This document shows positions 13,827-63,188 of a stretch of DNA of 64,000 nucleotides, piece by piece; position 1 is the stretch's first letter, and each line of letters starts with the position of its first letter. The notes beneath the pieces were generated by a model that made no database searches, was not told where the DNA came from, and worked only from the letters and a program-made list of their open reading frames with translations. The position numbers and the translations under genes were made by a program. Location of the stretch: NCBI GenBank assembly GCA_025055595.1, contig JANWWU010000078.1:16257-80256 (forward strand), written 5' to 3'. Source of the DNA: Planctomycetota bacterium (GTDB lineage Bacteria > Planctomycetota > UBA11346).

Positions 13827-15182
13827 TCACTCGATGACGATGTCACCGATCTGCGCCAGGGTCTGGATGGTGAAGGCCTCGGCGGCGACGGCCTCGCCGA
13901 CATTGCCGGCGAGATCGGCGGCTGTCACCTTGATGCGCGCGCTCTTCGTCGCCGCGACATCGTTCGGGATCTGGAAGCGGAAGGCCTGGTCGTGCGGCAG
14001 GTTGCGCCCGAGCTCGACCCACGGCTTGCCGCTCTCCATCTGCCACAGGACGCTGATGCTGTTGGGCTGGAGATTGGCGTCCTTCACCGTGAACACGACC
14101 TGCACGCGGTCGCCGGGCTTGAAGTCGCGGCGTCCGGGCGCCGGGGCCGCGGCGTCGCTGATGCCGATGGCGCTGGCCAGCAGCACGGTCGGCGCGCTGG
14201 TATCGACGATGATCGTCTCGCCGACCTTGCCCTGCGGGGCCTGCGTGACATTGCCGGCGCCGTCGGTGGCGACGACATACAGGCGGAACACGCCGTCCTG
14301 CGGCGCGCGCCAGCTCACCTGCTTGAAGGGCGCGGCGATCGTCGGGCCCTCGACCCAGCTGACGCCGTCGTCCTGGCTGACCCACAGCCGCGCCGCGCTC
14401 AGGCCCGCCGGGCCCTGATCGTTGACCTCGAGGTCGAGCGCCGTCTCCTGACGGTTGCTGATCGCCGGACCGAGCACTCGCCCGCGCGGCCGGATCGAAT
14501 CGACGAGGATGCCGGCGACATCGGCGAAGCCGACATTCCCGGCCTTGTCGGCGGCCTCGATGCGCAGCACGCCGGTCGTCGTCATGTCGCGCGGCACCGT
14601 CCACTCGAAGCTGCCGGCGTTCGCCAGCTCGCTCGCCACCGTCGCCCAGCTCGCGCCGCCGTCGACCGACCAGCGGATCGCGATCGGCGCCGTGCGCAGG
14701 TAGGCGTCGCTCGCCGTCCAGCGCACCGTGTACTTGTCGCCGCCGCGCAGCTTGGCGCCGGCGCCGGGGAAGCCGATCGCCACCCGCGGGCTGCTGCGGT
14801 CGATGATGAACTCCTTGTGGGCCTTGATCTTGTCAGGCTCGCGCGCGGGGTCGGCGCTCGGCAGGCCGGAGGTCAGCACGACCTGGAGATGGACCTGCCA
14901 GTGGCCCTCCGGCGGCGCCCACACCACTGGCGTGCCCTTGGGGTAGGCCTGGCCGTGGCGCTGCCACGCGCCCCAGTTCCCGTTGTCGAAGCCGCGGTAC
15001 CACAGGACATAGCGATCGAGCCCCTCGGGATCGGCCTTCGGCGTCAGCGTCCGCTCCTTGACGTTGCTGACCTCGATCTCGCGGGTGCCGTCGCGGAACG
15101 GCTCGGGGTCCAAGGGTTTCGGACGCGCCTCGCCGGCGCTGAGCAGAGCGAGGGCGCACAGGGGAAGGAGGGGACGCAGCAT
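13827..15182 (-). CDS. secreted protein with BNR/Asp-box-like repeats
   Basis: Signal peptide MLRPLLPLCALALLSAGEA. Repeated S-x-D-x-G-x-x-W motifs (SVDGGASW, SQDDGVSW, ESGKPW) in tandem Ig/beta domains. The upstream 120 codons of the track ORF are Arg-rich junk. Confidence 0.65.
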   Translation of the reverse strand: MLRPLLPLCALALLSAGEARPKPLDPEPFRDGTREIEVSNVKERTLTPKADPEGLDRYVLWYRGFDNGNWGAWQRHGQAYPKGTPVVWAPPEGHWQVHLQVVLTSGLPSADPAREPDKIKAHKEFIIDRSSPRVAIGFPGAGAKLRGGDKYTVRWTASDAYLRTAPIAIRWSVDGGASWATVASELANAGSFEWTVPRDMTTTGVLRIEAADKAGNVGFADVAGILVDSIRPRGRVLGPAISNRQETALDLEVNDQGPAGLSAARLWVSQDDGVSWVEGPTIAAPFKQVSWRAPQDGVFRLYVVATDGAGNVTQAPQGKVGETIIVDTSAPTVLLASAIGISDAAAPAPGRRDFKPGDRVQVVFTVKDANLQPNSISVLWQMESGKPWVELGRNLPHDQAFRFQIPNDVAATKSARIKVTAADLAGNVGEAVAAEAFTIQTLAQIGDIVIE

Positions 15183-15190
15183 AAGCGGAC

Positions 15191-15934
15191 TCACTGCAGT
15201 GTGTGGATGGCGGCACGAAAGAAACGGACGCCGTCGCCCTCGGGGCGCGGCGCCTCGCGCGTCCAGCGCGGGTGGTTCTCCCAGCGCAGGAAGCGCTCGG
15301 GATGGGGCATGAGACCGAAGACGCGGCCGCTCGCATCGCAGATGCCGGCGACCGCGCGCGCGCTGCCGTTGTGGCAGGTGTCGGAGCTGTAGCGCAGGCA
15401 GAGCTGCCCCGCCTGCTCCAGGCGCTCGAGCACCGCCTCGCTGGCGACGAAACGGCCCTCGGCGTGGGCGACCGGCAGCTCGACCTCCTGATCGTCGGCG
15501 ATCCACACGCAGCGCCGCGGGTCGCCGCGGCAGCGCACCCAACGGTCTTCGTAGACCCCGCTGCGGTTGTCGGTCAGCGTCGCCTGCTGCTCGCAGCGCC
15601 CGTCGAGGCGCGGCAGCAGCCCGCTCTTGACGAGGACCTGGAAGCCGTTGCAGATGCCGATGACCAGCCCGCCGCGCTCGATGAACTCGAGCAGCGCCTC
15701 GCGCAGGCAGGTCCGCAGCTCGTTGGCCAGCACCCGCCCGCTGGCGATGTCATCGCCGTAGCTGAAGCCGCCGGGGATGGCGAGCACCTGGTAGGCGCGC
15801 AGCCGCTGCGGCTGCTCGCGCAGCCGCAGGATGTGCACGGTCTCCGCCTGCGCGCCGACCAGCGTGAAGGCGTAGGCGGTCTCGGCGTCGCAGTTGGTCC
15901 CGGCCGCGCGCAGGACGCACACCCTCGGTGGCAT
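15191..15934 (-). CDS. purQ: phosphoribosylformylglycinamidine synthase subunit PurQ (glutaminase)
   Basis: GGFSYGD, the catalytic Cys in GICNGFQ, and HAEGRF. The size of 247 aa is consistent with PurQ. Confidence 0.9.
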   Translation of the reverse strand: MPPRVCVLRAAGTNCDAETAYAFTLVGAQAETVHILRLREQPQRLRAYQVLAIPGGFSYGDDIASGRVLANELRTCLREALLEFIERGGLVIGICNGFQVLVKSGLLPRLDGRCEQQATLTDNRSGVYEDRWVRCRGDPRRCVWIADDQEVELPVAHAEGRFVASEAVLERLEQAGQLCLRYSSDTCHNGSARAVAGICDASGRVFGLMPHPERFLRWENHPRWTREAPRPEGDGVRFFRAAIHTLQ

Positions 15935-15967: not shown

Positions 15968-16561
15968 TCAACGCGGAGCGCAGGCGTCGTCGTCCCGCAG
16001 GCGCGCGCGCAGCAGGCGCAGGGCGTGAAACATCCGGCTGCGCAAAGTGCCGGGGCTGATCCCGCCGAGCACCGCGCTCGCCTCCTCGTAGCTCAGCTCC
16101 TGGTAGACGATCAGCTCGATGATCTCGCGATAGATCTGTGGCAGCTCGCTGACCGCCCGCGCCACCCGCGCCTTGGCCTCGGCGCCGAACAGCGCGGCCT
16201 CGACCGGCGGCAGGCGGGCATCGGCCGGCTCGGCGATCCCGCCCTCCTCATCGAGATCGGCGAAGGAGACCTGCACGCGCCGCTGGCGCGCGCGCAGCCG
16301 ATCGAGCGCGGCGTGCCGCGCCACCGCGTAGAGCCAGGTCGCGAAGCGGCGCCGGCTGTCGAAGCGCTCGGCGCGGGTGAACAGCTTGAGGAAGACATCG
16401 TGGGCGATGCAGCCGGCCTCGTCGTAGTCGCGGACGATCTGCCAGAGGTAGGCGAGAATCGGGCGACGATAGCGCTCGTAGAGCGCAGCGAAGGCCTCGA
16501 GATCGCCGTCGCGGCAGCGCTCCGCCAGCACCTCGTCGCGCTCCTCGCCCGGTCCCGGCAT
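15968..16561 (-). CDS. RNA polymerase sigma-70 factor, ECF subfamily
   Basis: Internal Met MPGPGEERDEVLAERCRDGDLEAFAALYERYRRPILAYL... (sigma region 2) and a region-4 HTH ELSYEEASAVLGGISPGTLRSRMFHAL. The ATG overlaps the stop of the upstream hotdog gene by 1 nt. Confidence 0.85.
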   Translation of the reverse strand: MPGPGEERDEVLAERCRDGDLEAFAALYERYRRPILAYLWQIVRDYDEAGCIAHDVFLKLFTRAERFDSRRRFATWLYAVARHAALDRLRARQRRVQVSFADLDEEGGIAEPADARLPPVEAALFGAEAKARVARAVSELPQIYREIIELIVYQELSYEEASAVLGGISPGTLRSRMFHALRLLRARLRDDDACAPR

Positions 16562-17457
16562 CAGGCGAGCGCAGCCTCGATCAGCAGCGCCTCGCCGGGG
16601 CGCACGGGGCTGCGGAAGGCGATGCGCTGGAGCGCCGCCAGGCGCGGGACGCCGCCGTCCTCGATGAGCTGCAGGCCGCGGACCTCGGCGACCTCGCGGC
16701 CGTCGGCGCGCTGCACCCGGCCGTCGGCGGCGCCGGCGCGCTGCCCGAGCCGCTCGAGGGCGACGAGCGCGGCGTCGGCGACCGCGGCCAGCTGGGTGAC
16801 GCCCATCATCAGCGGCGCTCCCGGGAAGTGGCCGGGGACGAAGGGGTGATCGGGGGGGTAGGTGTAGGCGCAGTGCACGCGGCGCGCTTCCGCGCGCCAC
16901 GCGACGACGCCGTCGACGAAGCGCAGGTGCCGCGGCTTCCACGGCCAGTCGGCGAGCGCCGCCGCCGCCGGCGGCGGCGCCGGGCAGGGCGGCTCGCCGG
17001 CGATCGCGGCGAGCTCGGCAGCGCCGCTCATCACCTCGGCTTCGAGGACGCAGCGCCCGGCGCACTGCGCGCTGGTCGCGAAGACGGTGAAGGGCGGCCG
17101 CTCGCGGACGATCCGCGCCTCGCCCAGGAGCTCCTCGGCCGACGGCGCGAGGCCGTGGATGGCGACGCGCGCGATCGCGCTGAACACCGCCGCCTGGCCG
17201 GGCGCCAGGCGCGCGGCGATCAGCGGGATGCCGGCCAGGGCCAGGAACTCGAGCACGAAGGGCTCGTACCAGCAGGGCGTGCCGTCGCCGGCACGGCGCA
17301 TGAACACCGTTCGCCCGCGCTCATCGCCGGCCGGCACGCGCACCCGCGCGGTCGACGAGCGGCCGTCGTCGGCGACGACGACCTCGTCGGGGATCAGGTT
17401 GCAGCCGCGATGCGGCAGGACGGCGGCGAGGGCAGCGGGATCGAGCAGGCGCGGCAT
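16561..17457 (-). CDS. tandem hotdog-fold FabA/FabZ-like beta-hydroxyacyl-ACP dehydratase family protein
   Basis: The N-terminal half begins LPHRGCNLIPDEVVV (FabZ-like LPHR..LLVDRV). The C-terminal half carries HPFVPGHFPGAPLMMGVTQLAAVADA (the FabZ catalytic GHFP..P.MPGV motif). The start is taken at MPRLLDPAAL (residue 195 of the track ORF); the upstream residues are junk. Confidence 0.6.
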   Translation of the reverse strand: MPRLLDPAALAAVLPHRGCNLIPDEVVVADDGRSSTARVRVPAGDERGRTVFMRRAGDGTPCWYEPFVLEFLALAGIPLIAARLAPGQAAVFSAIARVAIHGLAPSAEELLGEARIVRERPPFTVFATSAQCAGRCVLEAEVMSGAAELAAIAGEPPCPAPPPAAAALADWPWKPRHLRFVDGVVAWRAEARRVHCAYTYPPDHPFVPGHFPGAPLMMGVTQLAAVADAALVALERLGQRAGAADGRVQRADGREVAEVRGLQLIEDGGVPRLAALQRIAFRSPVRPGEALLIEAALA

Positions 17458-17533
17458 GGGGCGAGGCTCGGGAGGCGGCGCGCGGTGCAAGCTTGCGCGC
17501 CGCGCGGACTGGCGTCCCGCTCGCGGCGGCAGA

Positions 17534-55798: not shown

Positions 55799-57058
55799 TC
55801 AAGTCCCCGGGCGCTTCCACACCGGGCCCTGCCCACCGAGCACCGTGGACCCGGGCGGCGGCTTGGGCGCTTCGGGCTTGGGTGCGGCTCCGGCGCTGCC
55901 GGCACCGCCGCCGGCCGGCGGCAGCTCCGGCTGGGTCGCCGCTTTCGCGGCCTTCTCCTCGCGGCTGCGCTGCTCGAGCATCGCCTCGACATCGATGCCG
56001 AGCGCCTTCAAGCGCTTGGCGATGTCGTCCTTGTCGATCGCCTTCTCCCAGACCTCGAGCGGCTCGACCTCCCCGGACTTGACGCGGGCCTCCAGGGCAT
56101 CGTTGAGCAGCTGCATCCCGTACTTGGCGCCGGTCTGCATCGCCGAAGGAATCTGGAAGGTCTTGCCCTCGCGGATCAGCGAGGCGATGCCGCTCGTCAC
56201 GAAGAGGATCTCCAGCGCTGCACAGCGGCCGCCGCCCTTCTTCTTGAGCAAAGTCTGCGAGACGACGCCGCGCAGGCTGCCGGCGAGCATCAGGCGGATC
56301 TGCTCCTGCTCCTCGGCGGGGAACTGATTGATGATGCGATCGACCGTGCTCGCCGCCGTCGAGGTGTGCAGGGTGCCGAAGACGAGGTGTCCGGTCTCCG
56401 CCGTCTCGATGGCGATCCGCGTCGTCTCGAGATCGCGCATCTCGCCGACCAGCACGATATCGGGGTCCTCGCGCAGCGCCGCGCGCAGCGCCGCCGCGAA
56501 GCTTTTCGTGTGGTTATGCACTTCGCGCTGGTTGACCAGGCACTGCTTCATCGGGTGCACGAACTCGATCGGGTCCTCGATGGTGATGATGTGCTCCTTG
56601 CGCGTCGCATTGATATGATCGATCATCGCCGCCAGCGTCGTCGACTTGCCGGAGCCCGTCGGTCCGGTGACGAGCACGAGGCCCTTCTTGAAGTCGCAGA
56701 GACGCATCACGCCCGGCGGCAGGCCGAGCTGCTCGGCGCTGAGGATCTTGTCGGGAATGCGGCGGAACACCGCGCCGATGCCGTAGCGATCGCGGAAATA
56801 GTTGGCGCGGAAGCGCCCGATGCCCTCCAGCGCGTAGGCGAAATCGGTATCGCCGGTCTCTTCCCACTGCTTGCGGTTGCGCTCCGGACAGATCTCGAAG
56901 AGCACCTGCTGCAGCTGTTCACGGCTCAACTTGGGAGCGCCGGCGATCGGCACGATGTCGCCGGAGACACGTACCATCGGCACATGTTCCGAGGTCAGGT
57001 GCAGGTCCGAGCCCTTCTGCTCGGTCATGATCTTGAACAGGTTATCGATCCACGCCAT
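55799..57058 (-). CDS. pilT: type IV pilus retraction ATPase PilT with an extra C-terminal tail
   Basis: Walker A GPTGSGKSTT. AALREDPDIVLVGEMRD. The His box GHLVFGTLHT. The PilT-specific AIRLM-like region (IRLMLAGSL). The tail beyond the PilT core (Lys/Ala/Pro/Gly-rich) is not a PilT domain. Confidence 0.9.
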   Translation of the reverse strand: MAWIDNLFKIMTEQKGSDLHLTSEHVPMVRVSGDIVPIAGAPKLSREQLQQVLFEICPERNRKQWEETGDTDFAYALEGIGRFRANYFRDRYGIGAVFRRIPDKILSAEQLGLPPGVMRLCDFKKGLVLVTGPTGSGKSTTLAAMIDHINATRKEHIITIEDPIEFVHPMKQCLVNQREVHNHTKSFAAALRAALREDPDIVLVGEMRDLETTRIAIETAETGHLVFGTLHTSTAASTVDRIINQFPAEEQEQIRLMLAGSLRGVVSQTLLKKKGGGRCAALEILFVTSGIASLIREGKTFQIPSAMQTGAKYGMQLLNDALEARVKSGEVEPLEVWEKAIDKDDIAKRLKALGIDVEAMLEQRSREEKAAKAATQPELPPAGGGAGSAGAAPKPEAPKPPPGSTVLGGQGPVWKRPGT

Positions 57059-57122: not shown

Positions 57123-60100
57123 CTATTTGACGACGCGCGCCCAGCCGCCGACACCCGTGGTGCTGACGCCGAAGGGCGCGAAAGGCGGTGTCCCTTCTTC
57201 CGTCAGCAAGTCGTAGTTGAATTCATAGATGCGTTGCGGCTCCGAATACACCGCTGGACTCTGCCCATTCCAATGTGCTGCCGGCACGGAGTACCCATAC
57301 ATCCCTACTTTGAACACCTGCAGGTTACCGTTGCGATCCGGACGACGATAGACGAAATTGTTGATGATCGACCGCCACTGGCCGCTGTTGTCGACGAAGC
57401 CGAAGGGCGTCGTGCCGTAAGTCTTGAAGCTGTCGAGCAGGAAGGCCTGCGTGTAACGGCGCGTATCCATGACCACGAGGCTGCCAAGGTACATCAAGGC
57501 GCAGCCATTCCAGTTCTCGAGCAAGAGGAAACTGTCGACGAAAGCCGCGGTCTGCCCCTCGGCGAGACGGTCGCGGGTCGTCGGCAGATTGTGCGTCGCG
57601 ATCGCGGCATTGTATTCGGTATTCGCGGCCCGAGGGCCGAAGGAGCTCATCGTCGCCAGCGTTCCGCTGCCGGTGACGCTCGGCGGGCCGCTGACATTGC
57701 TCACTGTCAACCCCGGAATCTGCGCATTCCCATCCAGCCAGGCATTTGATAAGAAGGTGATCGTATCCCCCATCAGGGCAACGGGCGTGAAGCGGTAGGC
57801 CACCGCGCCCTTGAGCGTGGTGCGGAAGCGATCGACATTGCAGTTGCCTTGCACATAGAGGGCATGCGGGGTGACGATCGTCGTCTTCCCCAGGCCGAAC
57901 TCGGGGATCGGAGTCACTTGCCAATCGTAGGCCGTCGTCGGGCCGATCGGGCGGCTGGCCGCGACACTGCGGGTGCCATCGTAGCCCCAGTCGAAGCGGT
58001 GGGCGTTGACGATGCGAACTCCGTGATGGAACTGCTGTGGCTTGAGCGGCAGGTCTTCCTTGAGATCGGCCGCCGCATAGGGCTGCAGGCGGTGGCCACG
58101 CGCGCTGTTCAGCCAAGCATAGGAGCCCTGCGGTGGCGGCGGGGGACTGCGCAGGCTCGCGTCATTGCCGATCTCCGGCGGGGCATCGCCCATATCTGCG
58201 CGGGAGTTCGGCAAGGGACTCAACCAGTGCGGGCTCCAGGGATTGATGCCCGTCGTGTCGGCACCGGCAGGCAGGCGCTCCGACTTGAGCCAGGGATTGA
58301 GATTCGGATTCCACGGATAACGATTGGTGCGCGCAGCATAGATCAGGCCAGAGAAGCGCTCTCGCAGCACATAATCCTGCGCCGGTGGCGAAGGATCGAC
58401 ATCCATGTGCCCCGGCAAGCGATCCGCCATCGCCTGGCTGATCGTCCGCGAACGCAGGTAGTTCTGGAGGGCCTCGATATCGAGCGTCAGCAGCGTGGTC
58501 TTGGCGAAGGCTTCGCGGATCGTCGTCTTTGTGAAGTTCTCGGCGGCGCTGGTCACCGGGTCCTTCTCGACGAGGTCGCGCTCGACCGTCGGCAAGTGCG
58601 GACTGGCATTCGGGCGCCGGACATCCCACCAGCGCGACTGGCTCCAGAACTCGCGGGCATTCCAGATCCAATCTTCGCTGGCGATGCGCCGCCCGGTCGC
58701 GGGATCGGTCCAGGTGAAGAAGTCTTCGGTGATCTCGCGCGTACCGAACCACACCTGATATTGGCTGGCCAGGTAGCGCCCCATCAGATCTTGACCGCTG
58801 CTGTCCGTATCCCAGTCCGTCGCATCGATGACATCGTCGGGGAACGGCAGGCTGGTCTGAATCCGCAAGTTGGTGAAGGTCGCCGTCACGACCTGGTTGA
58901 CATCCCCCGACTGAATGGCTGGACCGATCAGCAGGTGGCTGCCCCAGTTGCTGATGTCGAGCGTTCCCGGAACGCTCGTCCAGGTCGTGCCATTGGTCGA
59001 ATACGCGAAGGAGAGCGTCGATCCGCTCTGGCTGATCCGCAACCACAGACCGGTGATCGTGCTCGGTACGGAGATGTCGTCGGTCAGCCGGAAGTTGCCG
59101 GTCTGCAGACCGGCATTGCCCGTCGGATTGACGGTGCTGCTGGTCCAGGTAGTGCTGCCGGGATGCACATCGGGACGCCAACTGCGGGTCAACGGCCAGG
59201 TCGTCGGGCTGTTGCCTGCCCAGCTCGCCGGCCACAGCGCGCCTTGCGTCGGCACATACTGCGGCACCGCCGCGCTCAACCAGCTCTGGCTGTTGCTGAT
59301 CCAGCCGTTCAAGTCGAAGGTGATCGGCCGGCTGCTGCGCTCGATGCTGAATGTTAGACCGCCGTTAGAGACGAAGTCAGGCACGGTCGGATTGGCAGGA
59401 GTCGCCGGATCCGGGCAAGCGCTGTCGGCCGGCGCTGAGGGGGTGGGGCCAGTCCACGGCGATGAGGGGGTGGCGGTGTTGATCTCCGTGATCGAGAGGC
59501 CGGTGATCGCGGTGAGATCGGCGGCGGTGGCGTTCACGACCGTCCCATTCTTGTTGATGCGCAGCTGCCCGGCCGTGATCCAAGCCGTCGTCGGGCCGCC
59601 GACGCTCAAGGTTTGGGTCTCCGAGCTTCCCGACACCCAGGCGCCGTAGCTCGCGTTGTACAGCGTGTAGCGCAGCTGCGTGCGGTTGCCGCTGCTGCCG
59701 CCGAACAGGTACCAGCGATTGTCTGCAGGCGGCGTTCCACCCGTTAGGTAGCTGGTATTGATCTGGATCTGCCGGTTGTCGATGCTCGCCACGGTATACT
59801 TAGTTGTGCCGGTCGCCGCGCTGTAGATGCGCAGGTAACGATTGTGGTCGGTGCCATCGGCATCATTGATGTCATCGAACGGCGCGACATGATTCTGTAG
59901 CTGCACGGTCAGCACTTGCGTCGCCATGCGATACTTGCGCTTGTTGTACCAGGCGGTGCGCGTGCCTTGGAAGGTGCCGATGCTGAAGGGATCGAGGATC
60001 GTCCAGATCTTGCCGCCACCGACATCCTTGCTCATCGGCCCGCTGTAGGGCGTCGGCTGCTGGTTCCAAGTCACTGCCGAGGTCTGCAAGCCGCTGACTT

Positions 60101-63100
60101 CGGTCTGAATCGAACCGATGGTAACGGGAGTCAAGTCGGTCTGCAACAAGCGCGCAGTGCGCGTCACGCCCGCCACCGTATTCGGATTCTCGGCGATTTC
60201 ACCGCGGCTATTGACAGGGGTGCCGCTGGTCTCTGTGCCGTTGCCGATGTAGTACACACCGAGGGTGCGCAGTTCCTGCAGGTGGCGCTCGCCGCGCCGT
60301 TCGGTGAAGACGCCGCGCGTCGGTGAGAAGCCGATGAAGGCATACTGGGCCGCGCCGTTGAGCAGCGGCGAGAGGCCGCTCGAGCCATCGCGGATCATCA
60401 GCCCCACTTTCATCTGCTGCGGCCCCTGGATCTGGAACGGTCGATCGATGCGGACGATCGCCTGCTGGAAGTTGCTGCGCGGGATCCCCACTGCGCTGCG
60501 CGGCGGATTGAAGGCCGATGACGGGATCAAGGTTTCGCTGCCGAGCACCGGCTCGACAGTCTGCCAGCCGATGAACAGGCTTGGAGACGCGTTGCTGCCG
60601 TCGACCGCATAATCGATCTGGATCGGCACTGCCCTGTTCGCATGCAGGCGGATGGGGTTCTCGACCAGCGACGACACCCCCCAGTTGGTGAAGACCAGCC
60701 GCCCATCGACCCAGATGCGTACCCACTGGTGGCTGGCACTGCTGTTGTTGATCGTATAGCGGCTGCCGCTCGACGGAGAATTGCTGGTATAGGCGCGAAT
60801 GTAGTAGAGGTTGGTCGCCGTCGGGGTCAGGAAGCCCTCGAAACGCACGGAGCGCCGCTGATTGGCCAGGGAGGGCTGGATGCCGCTCGCTGCATTCGCG
60901 ACATTCGGCGTGGCGATGATGCCGGAACTCGGGGCAGTCAGCGAAACGATCGCGCTTCCGACAGGGCCGCCGACGAAGGACTGGCTGCCAACGCCGCTCG
61001 GGCGGTCAACGCACACCGTCACGCGCAAGCCATTGCGCGTCGTATCGATCGCGTGCCGGCCGAGGTGCACGAAACGCCAGTTCTGAGCATAGAAATATGG
61101 TTTGCGGCGGTAATAATCATCATAGCCAAGGTAGTTGTTGAGCGGGGTCACGGTATTCATCATCGCGGCGTTCTGGGCGCCGCTCATGATCAGCCGCCCC
61201 CCTGGGTAATAGGCGGCGTATTTCGCGATCTCGCTGTCGTTGATGCGCGCCGGATGCAAGGGGTCGTCCTGCCAAGTAATGCTGGTGCCATTGAAATTCC
61301 CCGAATAGCCCCAGGGATCCGCCGTCGGCGGTGCGCATACTTCGGCGATATGCGCGGCAAAAAAGGGAAAGTTGCTCGGATACCAATGCTTGCCGTAGGC
61401 ATAGGGCATCCAACGCGTGTCATGCGGAGGCACGATCCCAGCATTTTCCGTCCCCGGCCAGTGATCGACGCTCGGTGCCGGTCGTTCGCGAATGATCAGT
61501 CCGTTGATCGGTGCTTCTGTCGGGCGCTGCCCACTGAGCGTACGGATGTACCACCCCGTGCCATCCGGATAGCGGACCATGTAGTTTCCCGCGCCCATCG
61601 CATAACGCAGGTACTGCCCCGGCTCTTCGACCACCGGGGCGTTACCGCCAGCGCCATCAGGAAAGGCGGGGAAGCCCGGCAGAGTGGCTCTGGGGTAATC
61701 CGTCGTCGTCGTCCCATCGGCGCGGACGAAGAGCGGCCGGGCGAACTCATGCTCATCCGTCGCTTCGTCGCCATCCTGATCATGGTACTCCAAGCGCTGC
61801 GGTTCGAAGCCGCGATTGCGCATCCGTTCCGGCAGTTGCTTGACCTGCTGGCCGGTCACGCGCGTGCGCGCTTTGCCGTTGAAGCCCGGCGCCGACTGCT
61901 GGACGCTGATGACCGCCCAGCGTTGATCTGCGGGGCGCTGCAGATCGCGGGCATCATTCGCGATCTGCGGTCCGCTGAGCGCGCCCATGTAGGGCACCCC
62001 GCGAATCGCTACCCCATTGATTGTGACGCGATTGTCCTGAGCCCCCAGGCTATTCTCCGTGATCGCCGCACAGCCATCCTTGATCCGGTAGGGGTTGATG
62101 CGCCGCCCGTGGTCGGTCGCTTCGGCGAGGCTCGCGAGGGAAGCGCCTGGCGGATCGAGCGGCAACGGCATGCTGGCGATCGGCGTCGTCAGGTCGTAGG
62201 AGGCGAGCGCCGACCAAGTGATCGGCGTCAGACCGGTCGTCGCGTTCGGATTGCCATGGAGACCCGGCGAGCTGTTGTCGGTGAGCGGGAAACCATTGAT
62301 GATGCTGTACATCAGTGGCTTCGACAGGCGGAAGATGCCATCGACGCCATTGACTCGCACCGCTTGATTGTAGATATCCGGTCCGATCTGAGTCACTGCT
62401 GGCGCCAGCGTTCCAGTCAGGGGGCCGACGCGGGCGACGCGATCGTTGGCCTTCAGCCCGGAGCCGAGGTAGAGGGCGCCGTTGGTGTGCACGGAGCCCC
62501 GAATCGTCACCTGGTCGGCGTGCGAGAGCTCGAGGTCGCCCTTGGCGCCGCGTGCGGCGTAGAAGATCACATAGCGGAACAAGGGCTCGCGAATGACCGC
62601 CGCATAGCGCACGCCCTGCACCGCGACCGCCGGCCGCAGCACCTGCTGCCCGCTCGCGGTGAGTCCTGGCGGTGCCTGTGGATCGACGCCGATGCGCGCT
62701 TCGCCGGCGATGCGGAACATGTAGTTGACATCATTGGTCTGGAACGCTTGCTCGCCGCCAAGCGTCGTCTGCGTCGGCGGCGTCCAGTTCGGATCCGGAC
62801 TGGGGTTGGTGATGTGGAACACCGGATTGCCGCTGGCGTCGGTCGGCGGGGTGCGCACCGGCTCGATCTTCCAGCGCACTTCCGCGTCGCCGATGATGTC
62901 CACCCCGTAGTTGTTCTGCCAGCGCGCGATCTCGACCGGATCGCCCTGGCCGGCAAGCCGGACGACCTCGGCTTCGCGCCGCGAGAGGACGGAATCGAGC
63001 GCCGCAAACGCACGCTGATGCAGCGTCTGTTCCTGCGACGCGCGGGCGGACTGCGCCGCGCTCTCCATCGAAGCGAGCACGAGGACGGCGGCCAAAGTGA

Positions 63101-63188
63101 AAGCTCCCATCGCCACCGCGATCGCATTGCCGGAGCGAGCGTGCCTACGATGACGCATAGTGCCTCCCCGCGCACGGATGGTGCGCAT
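57123..63188 (-). CDS. giant (2021 aa) secreted or pilus-associated megaprotein with a PilX_N-like pseudopilin N-terminus and lectin-like (PA14-like, ConA/LamG-like) beta domains
   Basis: The N-terminus MRHRRHARSGNAIAVAMGAFTLAAVLVLASMESAAQSARASQEQTLHQRAFAALDSVL resembles the PilX N-terminal domain (hydrophobic helix then ...Q.AFQAAEAGL). HQWVRIWVDGRLVFTNWG is PA14-like. WLRISQSGSTLSFAYSTNGTTWTSV...SNWGSHLLIGPAIQSG is ConA-like/LamG. The overall composition is Thr/Gly/Ser/Asn/Pro/Trp-rich. It is a single uninterrupted ORF with no competing real ORF. The start is the track M or M11 (63158). Confidence 0.7.
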   Translation of the reverse strand: MRTIRARGGTMRHRRHARSGNAIAVAMGAFTLAAVLVLASMESAAQSARASQEQTLHQRAFAALDSVLSRREAEVVRLAGQGDPVEIARWQNNYGVDIIGDAEVRWKIEPVRTPPTDASGNPVFHITNPSPDPNWTPPTQTTLGGEQAFQTNDVNYMFRIAGEARIGVDPQAPPGLTASGQQVLRPAVAVQGVRYAAVIREPLFRYVIFYAARGAKGDLELSHADQVTIRGSVHTNGALYLGSGLKANDRVARVGPLTGTLAPAVTQIGPDIYNQAVRVNGVDGIFRLSKPLMYSIINGFPLTDNSSPGLHGNPNATTGLTPITWSALASYDLTTPIASMPLPLDPPGASLASLAEATDHGRRINPYRIKDGCAAITENSLGAQDNRVTINGVAIRGVPYMGALSGPQIANDARDLQRPADQRWAVISVQQSAPGFNGKARTRVTGQQVKQLPERMRNRGFEPQRLEYHDQDGDEATDEHEFARPLFVRADGTTTTDYPRATLPGFPAFPDGAGGNAPVVEEPGQYLRYAMGAGNYMVRYPDGTGWYIRTLSGQRPTEAPINGLIIRERPAPSVDHWPGTENAGIVPPHDTRWMPYAYGKHWYPSNFPFFAAHIAEVCAPPTADPWGYSGNFNGTSITWQDDPLHPARINDSEIAKYAAYYPGGRLIMSGAQNAAMMNTVTPLNNYLGYDDYYRRKPYFYAQNWRFVHLGRHAIDTTRNGLRVTVCVDRPSGVGSQSFVGGPVGSAIVSLTAPSSGIIATPNVANAASGIQPSLANQRRSVRFEGFLTPTATNLYYIRAYTSNSPSSGSRYTINNSSASHQWVRIWVDGRLVFTNWGVSSLVENPIRLHANRAVPIQIDYAVDGSNASPSLFIGWQTVEPVLGSETLIPSSAFNPPRSAVGIPRSNFQQAIVRIDRPFQIQGPQQMKVGLMIRDGSSGLSPLLNGAAQYAFIGFSPTRGVFTERRGERHLQELRTLGVYYIGNGTETSGTPVNSRGEIAENPNTVAGVTRTARLLQTDLTPVTIGSIQTEVSGLQTSAVTWNQQPTPYSGPMSKDVGGGKIWTILDPFSIGTFQGTRTAWYNKRKYRMATQVLTVQLQNHVAPFDDINDADGTDHNRYLRIYSAATGTTKYTVASIDNRQIQINTSYLTGGTPPADNRWYLFGGSSGNRTQLRYTLYNASYGAWVSGSSETQTLSVGGPTTAWITAGQLRINKNGTVVNATAADLTAITGLSITEINTATPSSPWTGPTPSAPADSACPDPATPANPTVPDFVSNGGLTFSIERSSRPITFDLNGWISNSQSWLSAAVPQYVPTQGALWPASWAGNSPTTWPLTRSWRPDVHPGSTTWTSSTVNPTGNAGLQTGNFRLTDDISVPSTITGLWLRISQSGSTLSFAYSTNGTTWTSVPGTLDISNWGSHLLIGPAIQSGDVNQVVTATFTNLRIQTSLPFPDDVIDATDWDTDSSGQDLMGRYLASQYQVWFGTREITEDFFTWTDPATGRRIASEDWIWNAREFWSQSRWWDVRRPNASPHLPTVERDLVEKDPVTSAAENFTKTTIREAFAKTTLLTLDIEALQNYLRSRTISQAMADRLPGHMDVDPSPPAQDYVLRERFSGLIYAARTNRYPWNPNLNPWLKSERLPAGADTTGINPWSPHWLSPLPNSRADMGDAPPEIGNDASLRSPPPPPQGSYAWLNSARGHRLQPYAAADLKEDLPLKPQQFHHGVRIVNAHRFDWGYDGTRSVAASRPIGPTTAYDWQVTPIPEFGLGKTTIVTPHALYVQGNCNVDRFRTTLKGAVAYRFTPVALMGDTITFLSNAWLDGNAQIPGLTVSNVSGPPSVTGSGTLATMSSFGPRAANTEYNAAIATHNLPTTRDRLAEGQTAAFVDSFLLLENWNGCALMYLGSLVVMDTRRYTQAFLLDSFKTYGTTPFGFVDNSGQWRSIINNFVYRRPDRNGNLQVFKVGMYGYSVPAAHWNGQSPAVYSEPQRIYEFNYDLLTEEGTPPFAPFGVSTTGVGGWARVVK

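What the first reader, a model, noticed from the sequence alone, without database searches (positions are those of the whole stretch)
15968..17457. Tandem-hotdog FabZ-like dehydratase translationally coupled to an ECF sigma factor
The 298-aa protein has an N-terminal hotdog half beginning with the FabZ-like LPHR motif. Its C-terminal half carries the catalytic GHFP..P.MPGV motif. Its stop overlaps by 1 nt the ATG of an ECF sigma-70 gene. No recognisable anti-sigma (zinc-finger, DUF or TM type) follows the sigma; purQ does. A lipid-dehydratase-like protein placed as the upstream partner of an ECF sigma is atypical. It may be a lipid-sensing regulator, or an anti-sigma of a new type.
Basis: partly seen in the sequence, partly recalled or inferred. 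Interest (0 to 1): 0.5.

Follow-up and report, generated by a model that had tools for sequence, protein, structure and literature searches.

The report
Tandem FabZ-like protein partnered with sigma factors
A two-domain relative of the fatty-acid dehydratase FabZ sits directly beside a sigma-factor gene in two distant bacterial phyla, so it is probably an unrecognised lipid-linked regulator of those sigma factors, though no binding has been shown.

Summary
Window 16561-17457(-) encodes a 298-aa double-hotdog protein. Its TGA shares one base with the ATG of a 197-aa ECF sigma (15968-16561, -). purQ follows and there is no recognisable anti-sigma.

New findings:
- Each half of the protein is FabZ-like. 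The FabZ catalytic His survives only in the C half (H210) and the catalytic Glu only in the N half (E70). Both are invariant in 248/248 family members, so one composite active site is kept.
- The pair is conserved. A sigma gene lies immediately downstream in 33 of 34 testable Planctomycetota loci: 28 carry the orthologous ECF and 5 a BLAST-unrelated ECF.
- In Candidatus Margulisiibacteriota, 6 of 6 loci have a SigB/F/G-type sigma immediately upstream of the homologue.
- None of about 48 loci places the gene inside a fatty-acid operon.
- Four intermediate family members have no adjacent sigma.

Best reading (confidence about 0.45): a conserved two-gene module in which a ligand-binding or catalytic FabZ-derived protein controls its sigma, as a new kind of anti-sigma or trigger enzyme. 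Main rival (about 0.3): a lipid enzyme that is merely co-expressed with the sigma. Physical interaction could not be tested here.

The parts
16561..17457 (-). Tandem (double) hotdog, FabZ-derived protein: 298 aa plus TGA stop
16993..17457 (-). N-terminal hotdog half (about aa 1-155). It has LPHRG.N at 14-20 and the GD.RGR loop at 44-49 where FabZ has its His loop. Its central helix carries E70, the FabZ catalytic-Glu equivalent.
   Evidence: A family profile aligns residues 5-153 over whole FabZ chains, with E70 on the FabZ Glu and no His. E70 is conserved in 248/248, D45 in 236/248 and R49 in 242/248 members.
16564..16941 (-). C-terminal hotdog half (about aa 173-298). It has DHPFVPGHFPGAPLMMGVTQ, with H210 as the FabZ catalytic-His equivalent. 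The position of the FabZ Glu is Ala225. It also carries the FabZ-like RIAFR.PVRPG motif.
   Evidence: Pfam FabA on residues 176-247. PDB profile alignment. H210 is conserved in 248/248 members. Position 225 was Ala, Met, Ser, Gly or Thr in 236 of 248, with no Glu or Asp among the residues listed. Q222 and D228 are each conserved in 244/248.
16559..16563 (-). TGATG: the hotdog stop and the sigma start share one base (translational coupling)
   Evidence: Read directly from the sequence; frame confirmed. The nearest relatives have gaps of -1 to +1 nt, and other Planctomycetota loci up to +123 nt.
15968..16561 (-). ECF (group 4) sigma-70 factor, 197 aa plus stop. It has regions 2 and 4 only, with no extension.
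   Evidence: Pfam Sigma70_r2 and r4_2. TIGR02937 above cut-off. The closest solved relatives are chain 6in7_B (deposited as RNA polymerase sigma-H factor), SigW and RpoE. Orthologues are 55-71% identical and 202-206 aa long.
17486..17491 (-). -35-like CTTGCA, 34 nt upstream of the hotdog ATG
   Evidence: CTTG[CTA][GAC] starts 34-39 nt upstream of the ATG in 21 of 30 loci, against 0.6 expected from shuffles. Promoter function is inferred.
17464..17469 (-). Weak -10-like GAGCCT ending 6 nt before the ATG, which would give a leaderless or near-leaderless mRNA
   Evidence: Inferred from position only. Other loci have GGTGTC or GGTATC at this place. The standard sigma-70 scan finds nothing here.
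15191..15934 (-). purQ-type glutamine amidotransferase. It is a neighbour only and not part of the conserved module, though it may be co-transcribed in this genome.
   Evidence: GATase_5 at E 2e-68. Absent from all 36 related loci. No terminator-like site lies between the sigma and purQ.

Best explanation
The hotdog and sigma genes form a conserved two-gene regulatory module.

The 298-aa protein is a single-chain FabZ pseudo-dimer. It keeps exactly one FabZ-type active site, made of His210 from the C half and Glu70 from the N half. The second, symmetry-related site has been remodelled into a different but equally conserved pocket (D45, R49, Q222, D228).

I propose that this protein is the cognate post-translational regulator of the adjacent sigma factor. 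Most likely it is a cytoplasmic anti-sigma that holds the sigma in a 1:1 complex. Co-translation from one, probably leaderless, mRNA would support that stoichiometry. Binding or turnover of a 3-hydroxyacyl or enoyl thioester (acyl-ACP or acyl-CoA) in the retained site would then release the sigma. This would couple fatty-acid and envelope-lipid status to transcription.

Shown here:
- the fold
- the conserved dyad
- the gene overlap
- adjacency to sigma genes in two phyla
- the absence of any canonical anti-sigma next to these sigmas

Inferred:
- binding to the sigma
- the direction of control (inhibition versus activation)
- the identity of the ligand
For: Conserved adjacency in Planctomycetota:
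- In 36 Planctomycetota MAG loci, the orthologous ECF sigma lies directly downstream in 28.
- A BLAST-unrelated ECF-type sigma lies directly downstream in 5 more. Locus L030 carries both.
- Two loci are cut by contig ends, and one (L022) lacks a sigma.
- A reciprocal look-up from a sigma orthologue returns purN-hotdog-sigma-cysH.
- The window has lost purN and cysH as neighbours but keeps the pair, with a 1-nt overlap.

Independent recurrence in a second phylum:
- In Candidatus Margulisiibacteriota, homologues about 30-40% identical lie immediately downstream of a SigB/F/G-type sigma in 6 of 6 loci.
- That sigma scores 221 bits on TIGR02980. The gap to the hotdog gene ranges from +14 nt to a 20-nt overlap.

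Background and missing partners:
- None of about 94 other genes called in these look-up loci has a sigma-70 domain.
- The nearest solved relatives of the ECF include SigW and RpoE. From my own knowledge, not tested here, these and the SigB/F/G family are controlled by anti-sigma factors encoded in the same operon.
- No other conserved partner gene exists in either clade.

Other points:
- The gene is not in a fab or lpx operon in any locus.
- It falls far below the FabZ equivalog cut-offs: 42.6 bits against 113 and 34.5 against 155.
- It evolves faster than the sigma and purN, with mean distances of 0.69, 0.53 and 0.47.
- There is precedent for a hot-dog fold used as a lipid-metabolite sensor in transcription control: FapR with malonyl-CoA (PMC3536700).
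Against: - No interaction evidence of any kind was obtained.
- The strictly invariant His/Glu dyad (248/248) is what a real enzyme would show. A purely sequestering anti-sigma would not need it.
- The protein has no anti-sigma domain and no helical bundle; it is all hotdog.
- Distance-matrix correlation between hotdog and sigma is 0.60 to 0.77. That is no higher than for housekeeping neighbours, at 0.54 to 0.71.
- Local synteny is generally conserved within each clade (purN in 28 loci, mur genes in 6 of 6). The real count is therefore only two or three independent associations.
- Four intermediate family members have no adjacent sigma.
- One regulator binding three unrelated sigma families is unusual for anti-sigmas.
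Confidence: 0.45

Rival explanations
1. Co-expressed lipid enzyme. The tandem hotdog would be a working dehydratase, hydratase or isomerase, for example a FabA- or FabN-like step that changes acyl-chain unsaturation, or a lipid A or specialised-lipid step. It would simply be transcribed together with the sigma that responds to envelope stress. It would then be an output of the regulon, not a regulator of the sigma.
For: - The FabZ catalytic dyad and the surrounding motifs are invariant in 248/248 members. These motifs are PHR, HPF.PGHFP, MMG and RF+.PV.PG.
- The fold is that of FabZ and of DH double hotdogs.
- There is precedent for ECF sigmas controlling fatty-acid synthesis, and for a FAS-type gene heading an ECF operon: P. 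aeruginosa SigX and fabH3-PA14_21550-PA14_21560 (PMC3875570).
- Some family members exist without a neighbouring sigma.
Against: - In the P. aeruginosa precedent a separate anti-sigma gene is still present; here none is.
- An enzyme-only role does not explain why three unrelated sigma families, in both gene orders and often with overlapping stop and start codons, were recruited next to this family.
- No other lipid genes are ever linked to it.
- The protein evolves faster than housekeeping neighbours.
Confidence: 0.3
2. No functional link. The adjacency would be inherited synteny within two clades that happen to keep local gene order. The sigma would be regulated by an anti-sigma encoded elsewhere, or only transcriptionally.
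For: - purN and cysH, which are unrelated housekeeping genes, are also conserved around the pair in many Planctomycetota loci, and the mur genes in Margulisiibacteriota.
- The mirror-tree signal is no better than for these controls.
- Gaps of up to 123 nt exist between the two genes.
Against: - The adjacency recurs in two phyla with different sigma classes. Within Planctomycetota a second, unrelated ECF was inserted at exactly this junction.
- It survives in the window, where both flanks were rearranged.
- The background frequency of sigma genes in the sampled neighbourhoods is 0 of about 94.
- By rough inference, the chance of an immediate sigma neighbour arising independently in two lineages is of the order of 1e-4.
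Confidence: 0.13
3. Positive partner rather than inhibitor. The hotdog protein would act as a co-factor or activator of the sigma. It might stabilise the sigma, or make a small-molecule or acyl modification the sigma needs.
For: - The context evidence is the same as for the best explanation.
- The retained catalytic site could make a product rather than sense a ligand.
- The hotdog gene precedes the sigma in Planctomycetota but follows it in Margulisiibacteriota, so gene order gives no hint of direction.
Against: - From my own knowledge, I know of no precedent for hotdog-dependent sigma activation.
- Nothing in the sigma (a minimal 197 aa) suggests a need for a co-factor.
Confidence: 0.08

Closest known systems
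FabZ, 3-hydroxyacyl-ACP dehydratase (TIGR01750 / PF07977; e.g. PDB 1u1z, 5bux, 6n3p)
   Same: - Both halves have the FabZ hotdog fold (TM 0.83-0.85).
- FabZ sequence motifs are present: LPHR, the HPF.PGHFP His loop, the central-helix Glu and RF+.PV.PGD.
- As in a FabZ dimer, the active site would be built from His of one hotdog and Glu of the other.
   Different: - FabZ is one 140-170-aa domain that homodimerises and has two identical sites. Here two diverged copies are fused in one chain, and only one His/Glu site survives.
- It scores far below the FabZ equivalog cut-offs.
- It is never found in lpxD-fabZ-lpxA or fab clusters; instead it is paired with sigma genes.
Double-hotdog dehydratase and product-template domains of PKS/FAS (PS-DH; e.g. 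PDB 5kbz, 4ooc, 5bp2, 2cf2)
   Different: - Sequence identity is only 6-12%.
- From my own knowledge, those domains carry the His in the N-terminal hotdog and an Asp in the C-terminal one. Here the order is reversed (Glu in the N half, His in the C half), and the motifs are FabZ-type.
- This protein is free-standing, not part of a megasynthase.
Cognate anti-sigma factors: RseA/MucA/RsiW-type class I ASD proteins for ECFs, and RsbW/SpoIIAB kinases for SigB/F/G
   Same: - It occupies the operon position of an anti-sigma: immediately adjacent, on the same strand, and often translationally coupled.
- It sits next to sigma types that normally have such partners.
   Different: - It has no anti-sigma domain, no zinc-binding motif, no transmembrane helix and no HATPase domain.
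- The fold is entirely hotdog.
- Binding to the sigma is untested.
FapR, the malonyl-CoA-sensing repressor with a hot-dog effector domain
   Same: A hot-dog fold used to read a fatty-acid-pathway thioester and control transcription. PMC3536700 calls FapR the only well-characterised non-enzymatic use of the fold.
   Different: - FapR has a DNA-binding HTH domain and a thioesterase-like single hotdog that dimerises, and it acts as a repressor on DNA.
- This protein has no HTH, is FabZ-like, keeps a catalytic dyad, and would act on a sigma factor.
P. aeruginosa fabH3-PA14_21550(ECF)-PA14_21560(anti-sigma) operon
   Same: A fatty-acid-synthesis-type gene is the first gene of an ECF sigma operon (PMC3875570).
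   Different: - The enzyme there is a KAS III, not a hotdog.
- A separate anti-sigma gene follows the sigma there; none does here.

Membership tests
FabZ (3-hydroxyacyl-ACP dehydratase) | Reaches the curated equivalog score (TIGR01750 155 bits; NF000582 113 bits) | tested here: not met
   34.5 and 42.6 bits. Only the generic Pfam FabA domain passes, at 30.1 bits against a cut-off of 23, and only on the C half.
FabZ (3-hydroxyacyl-ACP dehydratase) | Single hotdog domain of about 140-170 aa that forms homodimers with two identical His/Glu sites | tested here: not met
   The chain is 298 aa with two diverged hotdogs. The His is only in the C half and the Glu only in the N half.
FabZ (3-hydroxyacyl-ACP dehydratase) | Catalytic His and Glu present | tested here: met
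   H210 aligns to the FabZ His and E70 to the FabZ Glu. Both are conserved in 248/248 members. Their spatial proximity is inferred from FabZ dimer geometry and was not measured, because no coordinates were available.
FabZ (3-hydroxyacyl-ACP dehydratase) | Dehydratase activity on 3-hydroxyacyl-ACP | not testable with these tools
   Needs an enzyme assay.
FabZ (3-hydroxyacyl-ACP dehydratase) | Typical context in fab or lpx gene clusters | tested here: not met
   No locus places it in such a cluster. The only lipid genes seen nearby are a lipid A acyltransferase 3.4 kb away on the other strand in L046, and accD/accA 2.7 kb away in L044.
ECF (group 4) sigma-70 factors (the downstream gene) | Regions 2 and 4 only, no region 3 or 1.1; passes TIGR02937 | tested here: met
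   Sigma70_r2 and r4_2 with no r3 hit. TIGR02937 at 87.6 bits against 42.9. Length 197 aa.
Anti-sigma factors (class I-III ASD, ZAS, RsbW-type, FlgM) | A recognisable anti-sigma domain: helical ASD or zf-HC2, HATPase, or FlgM | tested here: not met
   No such Pfam or NCBIfam hit at E up to 1. In the model, both hotdogs account for the whole chain.
Anti-sigma factors (class I-III ASD, ZAS, RsbW-type, FlgM) | Encoded next to and co-transcribed with its sigma | tested here: met
   1-nt overlap in the window. Adjacent on the same strand in 33 of 34 testable Planctomycetota loci and 6 of 6 Margulisiibacteriota loci. Co-transcription itself is inferred.
Anti-sigma factors (class I-III ASD, ZAS, RsbW-type, FlgM) | Binds its sigma and blocks association with core RNA polymerase | not testable with these tools
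Mirror-tree analysis was inconclusive.
PKS/FAS double-hotdog dehydratase (PS-DH) | Double-hotdog fold | tested here: met
PKS/FAS double-hotdog dehydratase (PS-DH) | His in the N-terminal hotdog (H...G....P) and Asp in the C-terminal hotdog; Pfam PS-DH match | tested here: not met
   The His is in the C half and the acid in the N half. PS-DH was hit by 1 of 22 members, at E 0.1 only. The residue order in PS-DH domains is from my own knowledge.

The most novel reading that the evidence does not exclude
The tandem FabZ-like family would be a new structural class of cytoplasmic sigma-factor regulator, acting as a 'trigger enzyme' anti-sigma. It would use a retained FabZ active site to read acyl-ACP or acyl-CoA intermediates. 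It would have been recruited at least three times, to ECF and SigB/F/G-type sigmas in Planctomycetota and Margulisiibacteriota. That would link membrane-lipid synthesis directly to promoter selection.
Probability: 0.35. Interest if true: 0.85.

Novelty: new variant of a known kind. Interest (0 to 1): 0.66.

Why it matters
Many ECF sigma factors, and some SigB/F/G-type sigmas, have no known regulator. A hotdog-fold partner would add a new class of anti-sigma. Only one other non-enzymatic use of the hot-dog fold is well characterised: FapR, according to PMC3536700.

It would also give a direct, testable route by which fatty-acid or lipid A precursor status controls an envelope-type sigma in uncultured Planctomycetota and Margulisiibacteriota.

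Even if the protein is only an enzyme, it is still of interest. A single-chain FabZ pseudo-dimer with one canonical and one remodelled site is an undescribed dehydratase architecture. Both proteins are small and soluble, so the hypothesis can be tested with synthetic genes without cultivating the organisms.

Tried and rejected
- **Complex prediction.** I built 18 paired hotdog-(GGGGS)6-sigma chains (A4). No complex model was obtained.
- **afdb50 fold search.** The library was not available.
- **Mirror-tree test.** Hotdog-sigma distance correlation is 0.60 (0.77 on 13 shared loci). Controls with purN and cysH give 0.54-0.71. The partial r given purN is 0.43. The result is not discriminating.
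- **ECF group assignment and known neighbourhoods.** The main text of Casas-Pastor et al. 2021 has no mention of FabZ or dehydratase, and no supplements are held.
- **Literature.** No paper combines anti-sigma with hotdog.
- **Canonical fabZ in the window or flanks.** None was found. This says nothing about the rest of the genome.
- **Regulon search.** The pattern CTTGYR-N16-20-GGTRTB has 0 further matches in the window. The standard sigma-70 scan finds no promoter.
- **Rfam on the whole window.** No hits.
- **Considered and rejected:**
  - Anammox-specific FabZ (PDB 8ayd). It is a single domain, only 12% identical, and the loci are high-GC despite some 'Kuenenia' labels.
  - ApeI/ApeP aryl-polyene dehydratase. 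The Pfam ApeI-like match is only faint or weak, and no Ape genes are nearby.
  - MaoC or thioesterase. Hits are only marginal.
Full report
**1. What is in the window**

The window is about 72% G+C. On the minus strand, an ORF starting at ATG 17457 encodes a 298-aa protein, with its stop codon TGA at 16563-16561. The A of that stop is the A of the ATG (16561-16559) of a 197-aa protein ending at 15968. The genes therefore read TGATG and overlap by one base.
- Pfam places a FabA-like domain on residues 176-247 of the first protein (E 4.3e-7).
- Pfam places Sigma70_r2 and Sigma70_r4_2 on the second protein. NCBIfam puts it in the ECF superfamily model TIGR02937, above cut-off.
- Thirty-three bases further on lies a purQ-type amidotransferase (GATase_5, E 2e-68).
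- Upstream, transcribed divergently from about 17534, lies an mrp/apbC-type ATPase.
- No small ORF that could be a conventional anti-sigma lies between or beside these genes.

Two details need amending. The motif is GHFPGAPLMMGV, not MPGV. The C half carries the FabZ His but not the FabZ Glu.

**2. What the hotdog protein is**

AlphaFold2 with a 22-sequence alignment gives a confident model (pLDDT 92.9, pTM 0.92). It shows two beta-sheets, each wrapped around a long central helix (residues 65-79 and 219-236), joined by a Pro/Ala-rich linker.
- Foldseek superposes each half on bacterial FabZ at TM 0.83-0.85.

A profile of the family searched against PDB sequences aligns both halves to FabZ.
- The N half (5-153) covers a whole FabZ chain. 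E70 falls on the catalytic Glu of the central helix, but the His loop is replaced by a GD.RGR loop.
- The C half has the canonical HPF.PGHFP..P.M.G His loop (H210) and the RF+.PV.PGD motif. It has Ala where FabZ has Glu.

In a FabZ homodimer each active site is built from His of one subunit and Glu of the other. That is established FabZ structural knowledge; I did not measure it here, because model coordinates are not exposed. The fused protein should therefore keep exactly one canonical site (H210 with E70) and one remodelled site.

In an alignment of 248 full-length family members:
- H210 and E70 are each conserved in 248/248.
- The C-half position of the FabZ Glu was Ala, Met, Ser, Gly or Thr in 236 of 248 members; no Glu or Asp appeared among the residues listed.
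- The residues lining the second site are nearly invariant: D45 236/248, R49 242/248, Q222 244/248, D228 244/248.

The protein fails the FabZ equivalog cut-offs by a wide margin (34.5 against 155 bits; 42.6 against 113 bits). It is thus a FabZ-derived pseudo-dimer and not a FabZ.

**3. Is the pairing with a sigma factor conserved?**

Yes, and more widely than the finding suggested. Close homologues (37-73% identity, about 300 aa) are all from Planctomycetota MAGs. A scan of one genome per species returned 36 loci.
- tblastn finds the orthologue of the window's sigma directly downstream in 28 of them.
- Five more (L027, L030, L031, L032, L035) have a different ORF of about 240 aa directly downstream. 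It also has sigma regions 2 and 4 but shows no BLAST similarity to the first sigma. L030 has both, in the order hotdog, second sigma, first sigma.
- Two loci end at the contig edge.
- One (L022) has a convergent methyltransferase-like gene instead.
- Starting from a sigma orthologue on another contig returns purN-hotdog-sigma-cysH.

The gap between the two genes runs from -7 to +123 nt. The window's nearest relatives have -1 to +1.

One caveat applies. purN (28 loci) and a PAPS reductase (17 loci) are also conserved on either side. Synteny within this clade is therefore only moderately informative. In the window both flanks have changed, to mrp and purQ, while the pair stayed together.

**4. 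The same association in another phylum**

An exhaustive profile search of 1.84 billion representatives finds about 120-170 clusters with the full tandem architecture. A low-GC branch, 28-40% identical to the window protein, belongs to Candidatus Margulisiibacteriota/Marinamargulisbacteria.

In all six loci examined there, the order is murE-murF-mraY on one strand, then, divergently, a 247-280-aa sigma with regions 2, 3 and 4, followed by the tandem hotdog. The spacing runs from +14 nt to a 20-nt overlap. That sigma is SigB/SigF/SigG-like (TIGR02980 at 202-221 bits, cut-off 234). It has no BLAST similarity to either Planctomycetota sigma.

Among about 94 other genes called in the twelve look-up loci, none carries a sigma-70 domain. 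The family thus sits next to three unrelated sigma families, in both gene orders, in two phyla.

Four members of intermediate branches (L041, L043, L046, L047) have no adjacent sigma. The link is therefore clade-specific rather than universal. In none of about 48 loci is the gene embedded in a fatty-acid or lipid A operon.

**5. The sigma factors lack their usual partners**

Among solved structures, the closest relatives of the window's ECF are chain 6in7_B (deposited as RNA polymerase sigma-H factor), SigW and RpoE. From my own knowledge, SigW and RpoE are held by membrane-spanning class I anti-sigmas encoded next to them. Also from my own knowledge, SigB/F/G sigmas are held by RsbW/SpoIIAB kinases encoded just upstream. 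Neither kind of gene is found beside these sigmas. The only conserved same-strand neighbour is the tandem hotdog.

**6. Promoter**

A CTTG[CTA][GAC] element starts 34-39 nt upstream of the hotdog ATG in 21 of 30 loci, against 0.6 expected. In the window it is CTTGCA at 17491-17486. In many loci a GGTGTC or GGTATC element ends 5-7 nt before the ATG. That would place the transcription start at or next to the ATG, giving a leaderless mRNA. This is an inference. I cannot say whether the housekeeping sigma or the ECF itself reads this promoter. No second copy of the motif occurs in the window. No terminator-like site separates the sigma from purQ.

**7. Interpretation**

The best-supported reading is a conserved two-gene module in which the FabZ-derived protein is the sigma's cognate regulator. 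It would most likely be a cytoplasmic anti-sigma or 'trigger enzyme' whose hold on the sigma depends on an acyl-thioester bound or turned over in the retained site.

The arguments for this reading:
- the recurrent, tightly coupled adjacency to sigma genes of three families
- the missing conventional anti-sigmas
- the absence of any lipid-operon context
- the protein's faster evolution relative to its neighbours
- the FapR precedent for a hot-dog lipid sensor in transcription control (PMC3536700)

The arguments against:
- no interaction evidence was obtained
- the catalytic dyad is strictly conserved, as in a real enzyme
- the mirror-tree result is uninformative
- family members without an adjacent sigma exist

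The main rival is that the protein is simply a lipid-modifying enzyme co-expressed with an envelope-stress sigma. P. aeruginosa SigX and the fabH3-ECF-anti-sigma operon are precedents for that (PMC3875570). A null model of inherited synteny is hard to reconcile with three independent sigma partners.

My confidences are 0.45 for the regulator reading, 0.30 for a co-expressed enzyme, 0.13 for no functional link and 0.08 for an activator.

**8. Novelty**

No Pfam, NCBIfam or PDB entry describes this family beyond generic FabA/FabZ similarity. Databases call it 'hypothetical protein' or COG-style '3-hydroxymyristoyl/3-hydroxydecanoyl-ACP dehydratase'. Full-text searches find no paper linking anti-sigma factors with the hotdog fold.

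I rate it a new variant of a known kind. As an enzyme architecture it is a single-chain FabZ with one canonical site. If the regulatory role holds, it is a new structural class of sigma regulator. The decisive tests are multimer structure prediction, pull-down assays, in-vitro transcription with and without acyl-ACP, and dehydratase assays. All are feasible with synthetic genes.

Noticed in passing
window 17464-17491 (-); loci L001-L036, 34-39 nt upstream of the hotdog ATG: A conserved CTTG[CTA][GAC] -35-like element occurs in 21 of 30 loci, against 0.6 expected. A GGTGTC or GGTATC element ends 5-7 nt before the ATG, suggesting a leaderless hotdog-sigma mRNA. Which sigma reads it is unknown.
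   Followed up: partly
L027:3953-4666, L030:5875-6624, L031:2022-2738, L032:5916-6635, and L035 (about 1643-2392): A second, BLAST-unrelated ECF-type sigma of about 240 aa (Sigma70_r2 plus weak r4_2) sits directly after the hotdog gene in one Planctomycetota sub-branch. In L030 it is inserted between the hotdog gene and the usual sigma.
   Followed up: partly
L044:5567-7273 (-): A dCache_1-SpoIIE (PP2C phosphatase) gene lies 0.6 kb from the Margulisiibacteriota SigB/F/G-like sigma and hotdog pair. PP2C phosphatases belong to partner-switching sigma control. This was seen in one locus only.
   Followed up: no
window 57123-63188 (-): A 2021-aa ORF lies in the lower-GC tail of the window (63-65% against about 72%). 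It has only a weak PA14 domain hit. A PilT/T2SSE-type ATPase gene (55799-57058, -) lies next to it.
   Followed up: partly
window 13827-15542 (-): A 571-aa ORF with Ig-like domains (Kre9_KNH, Big_13, Big_6) lies directly downstream of purQ. It may be a secreted or surface protein.
   Followed up: partly
L005, L008, L009, L021, L022 (record titles): These MAG records are titled 'Candidatus Kuenenia' or 'Brocadiaceae'. Their tandem hotdog genes are 47-57% identical to the window's, and where present (L005, L008, L009, L021) their sigma genes match too, as in the other Planctomycetota MAGs. The taxonomic labels look unreliable.
   Followed up: no
L041:1739-2026 (+): In one intermediate family member with no adjacent sigma, a 95-aa ORF with no Pfam hit overlaps the hotdog stop by 4 nt. 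An HtrA-like protease gene follows. This could be a different partner.
   Followed up: no
window 1-64000: No Rfam family reaches its gathering score anywhere in the window.
   Followed up: yes
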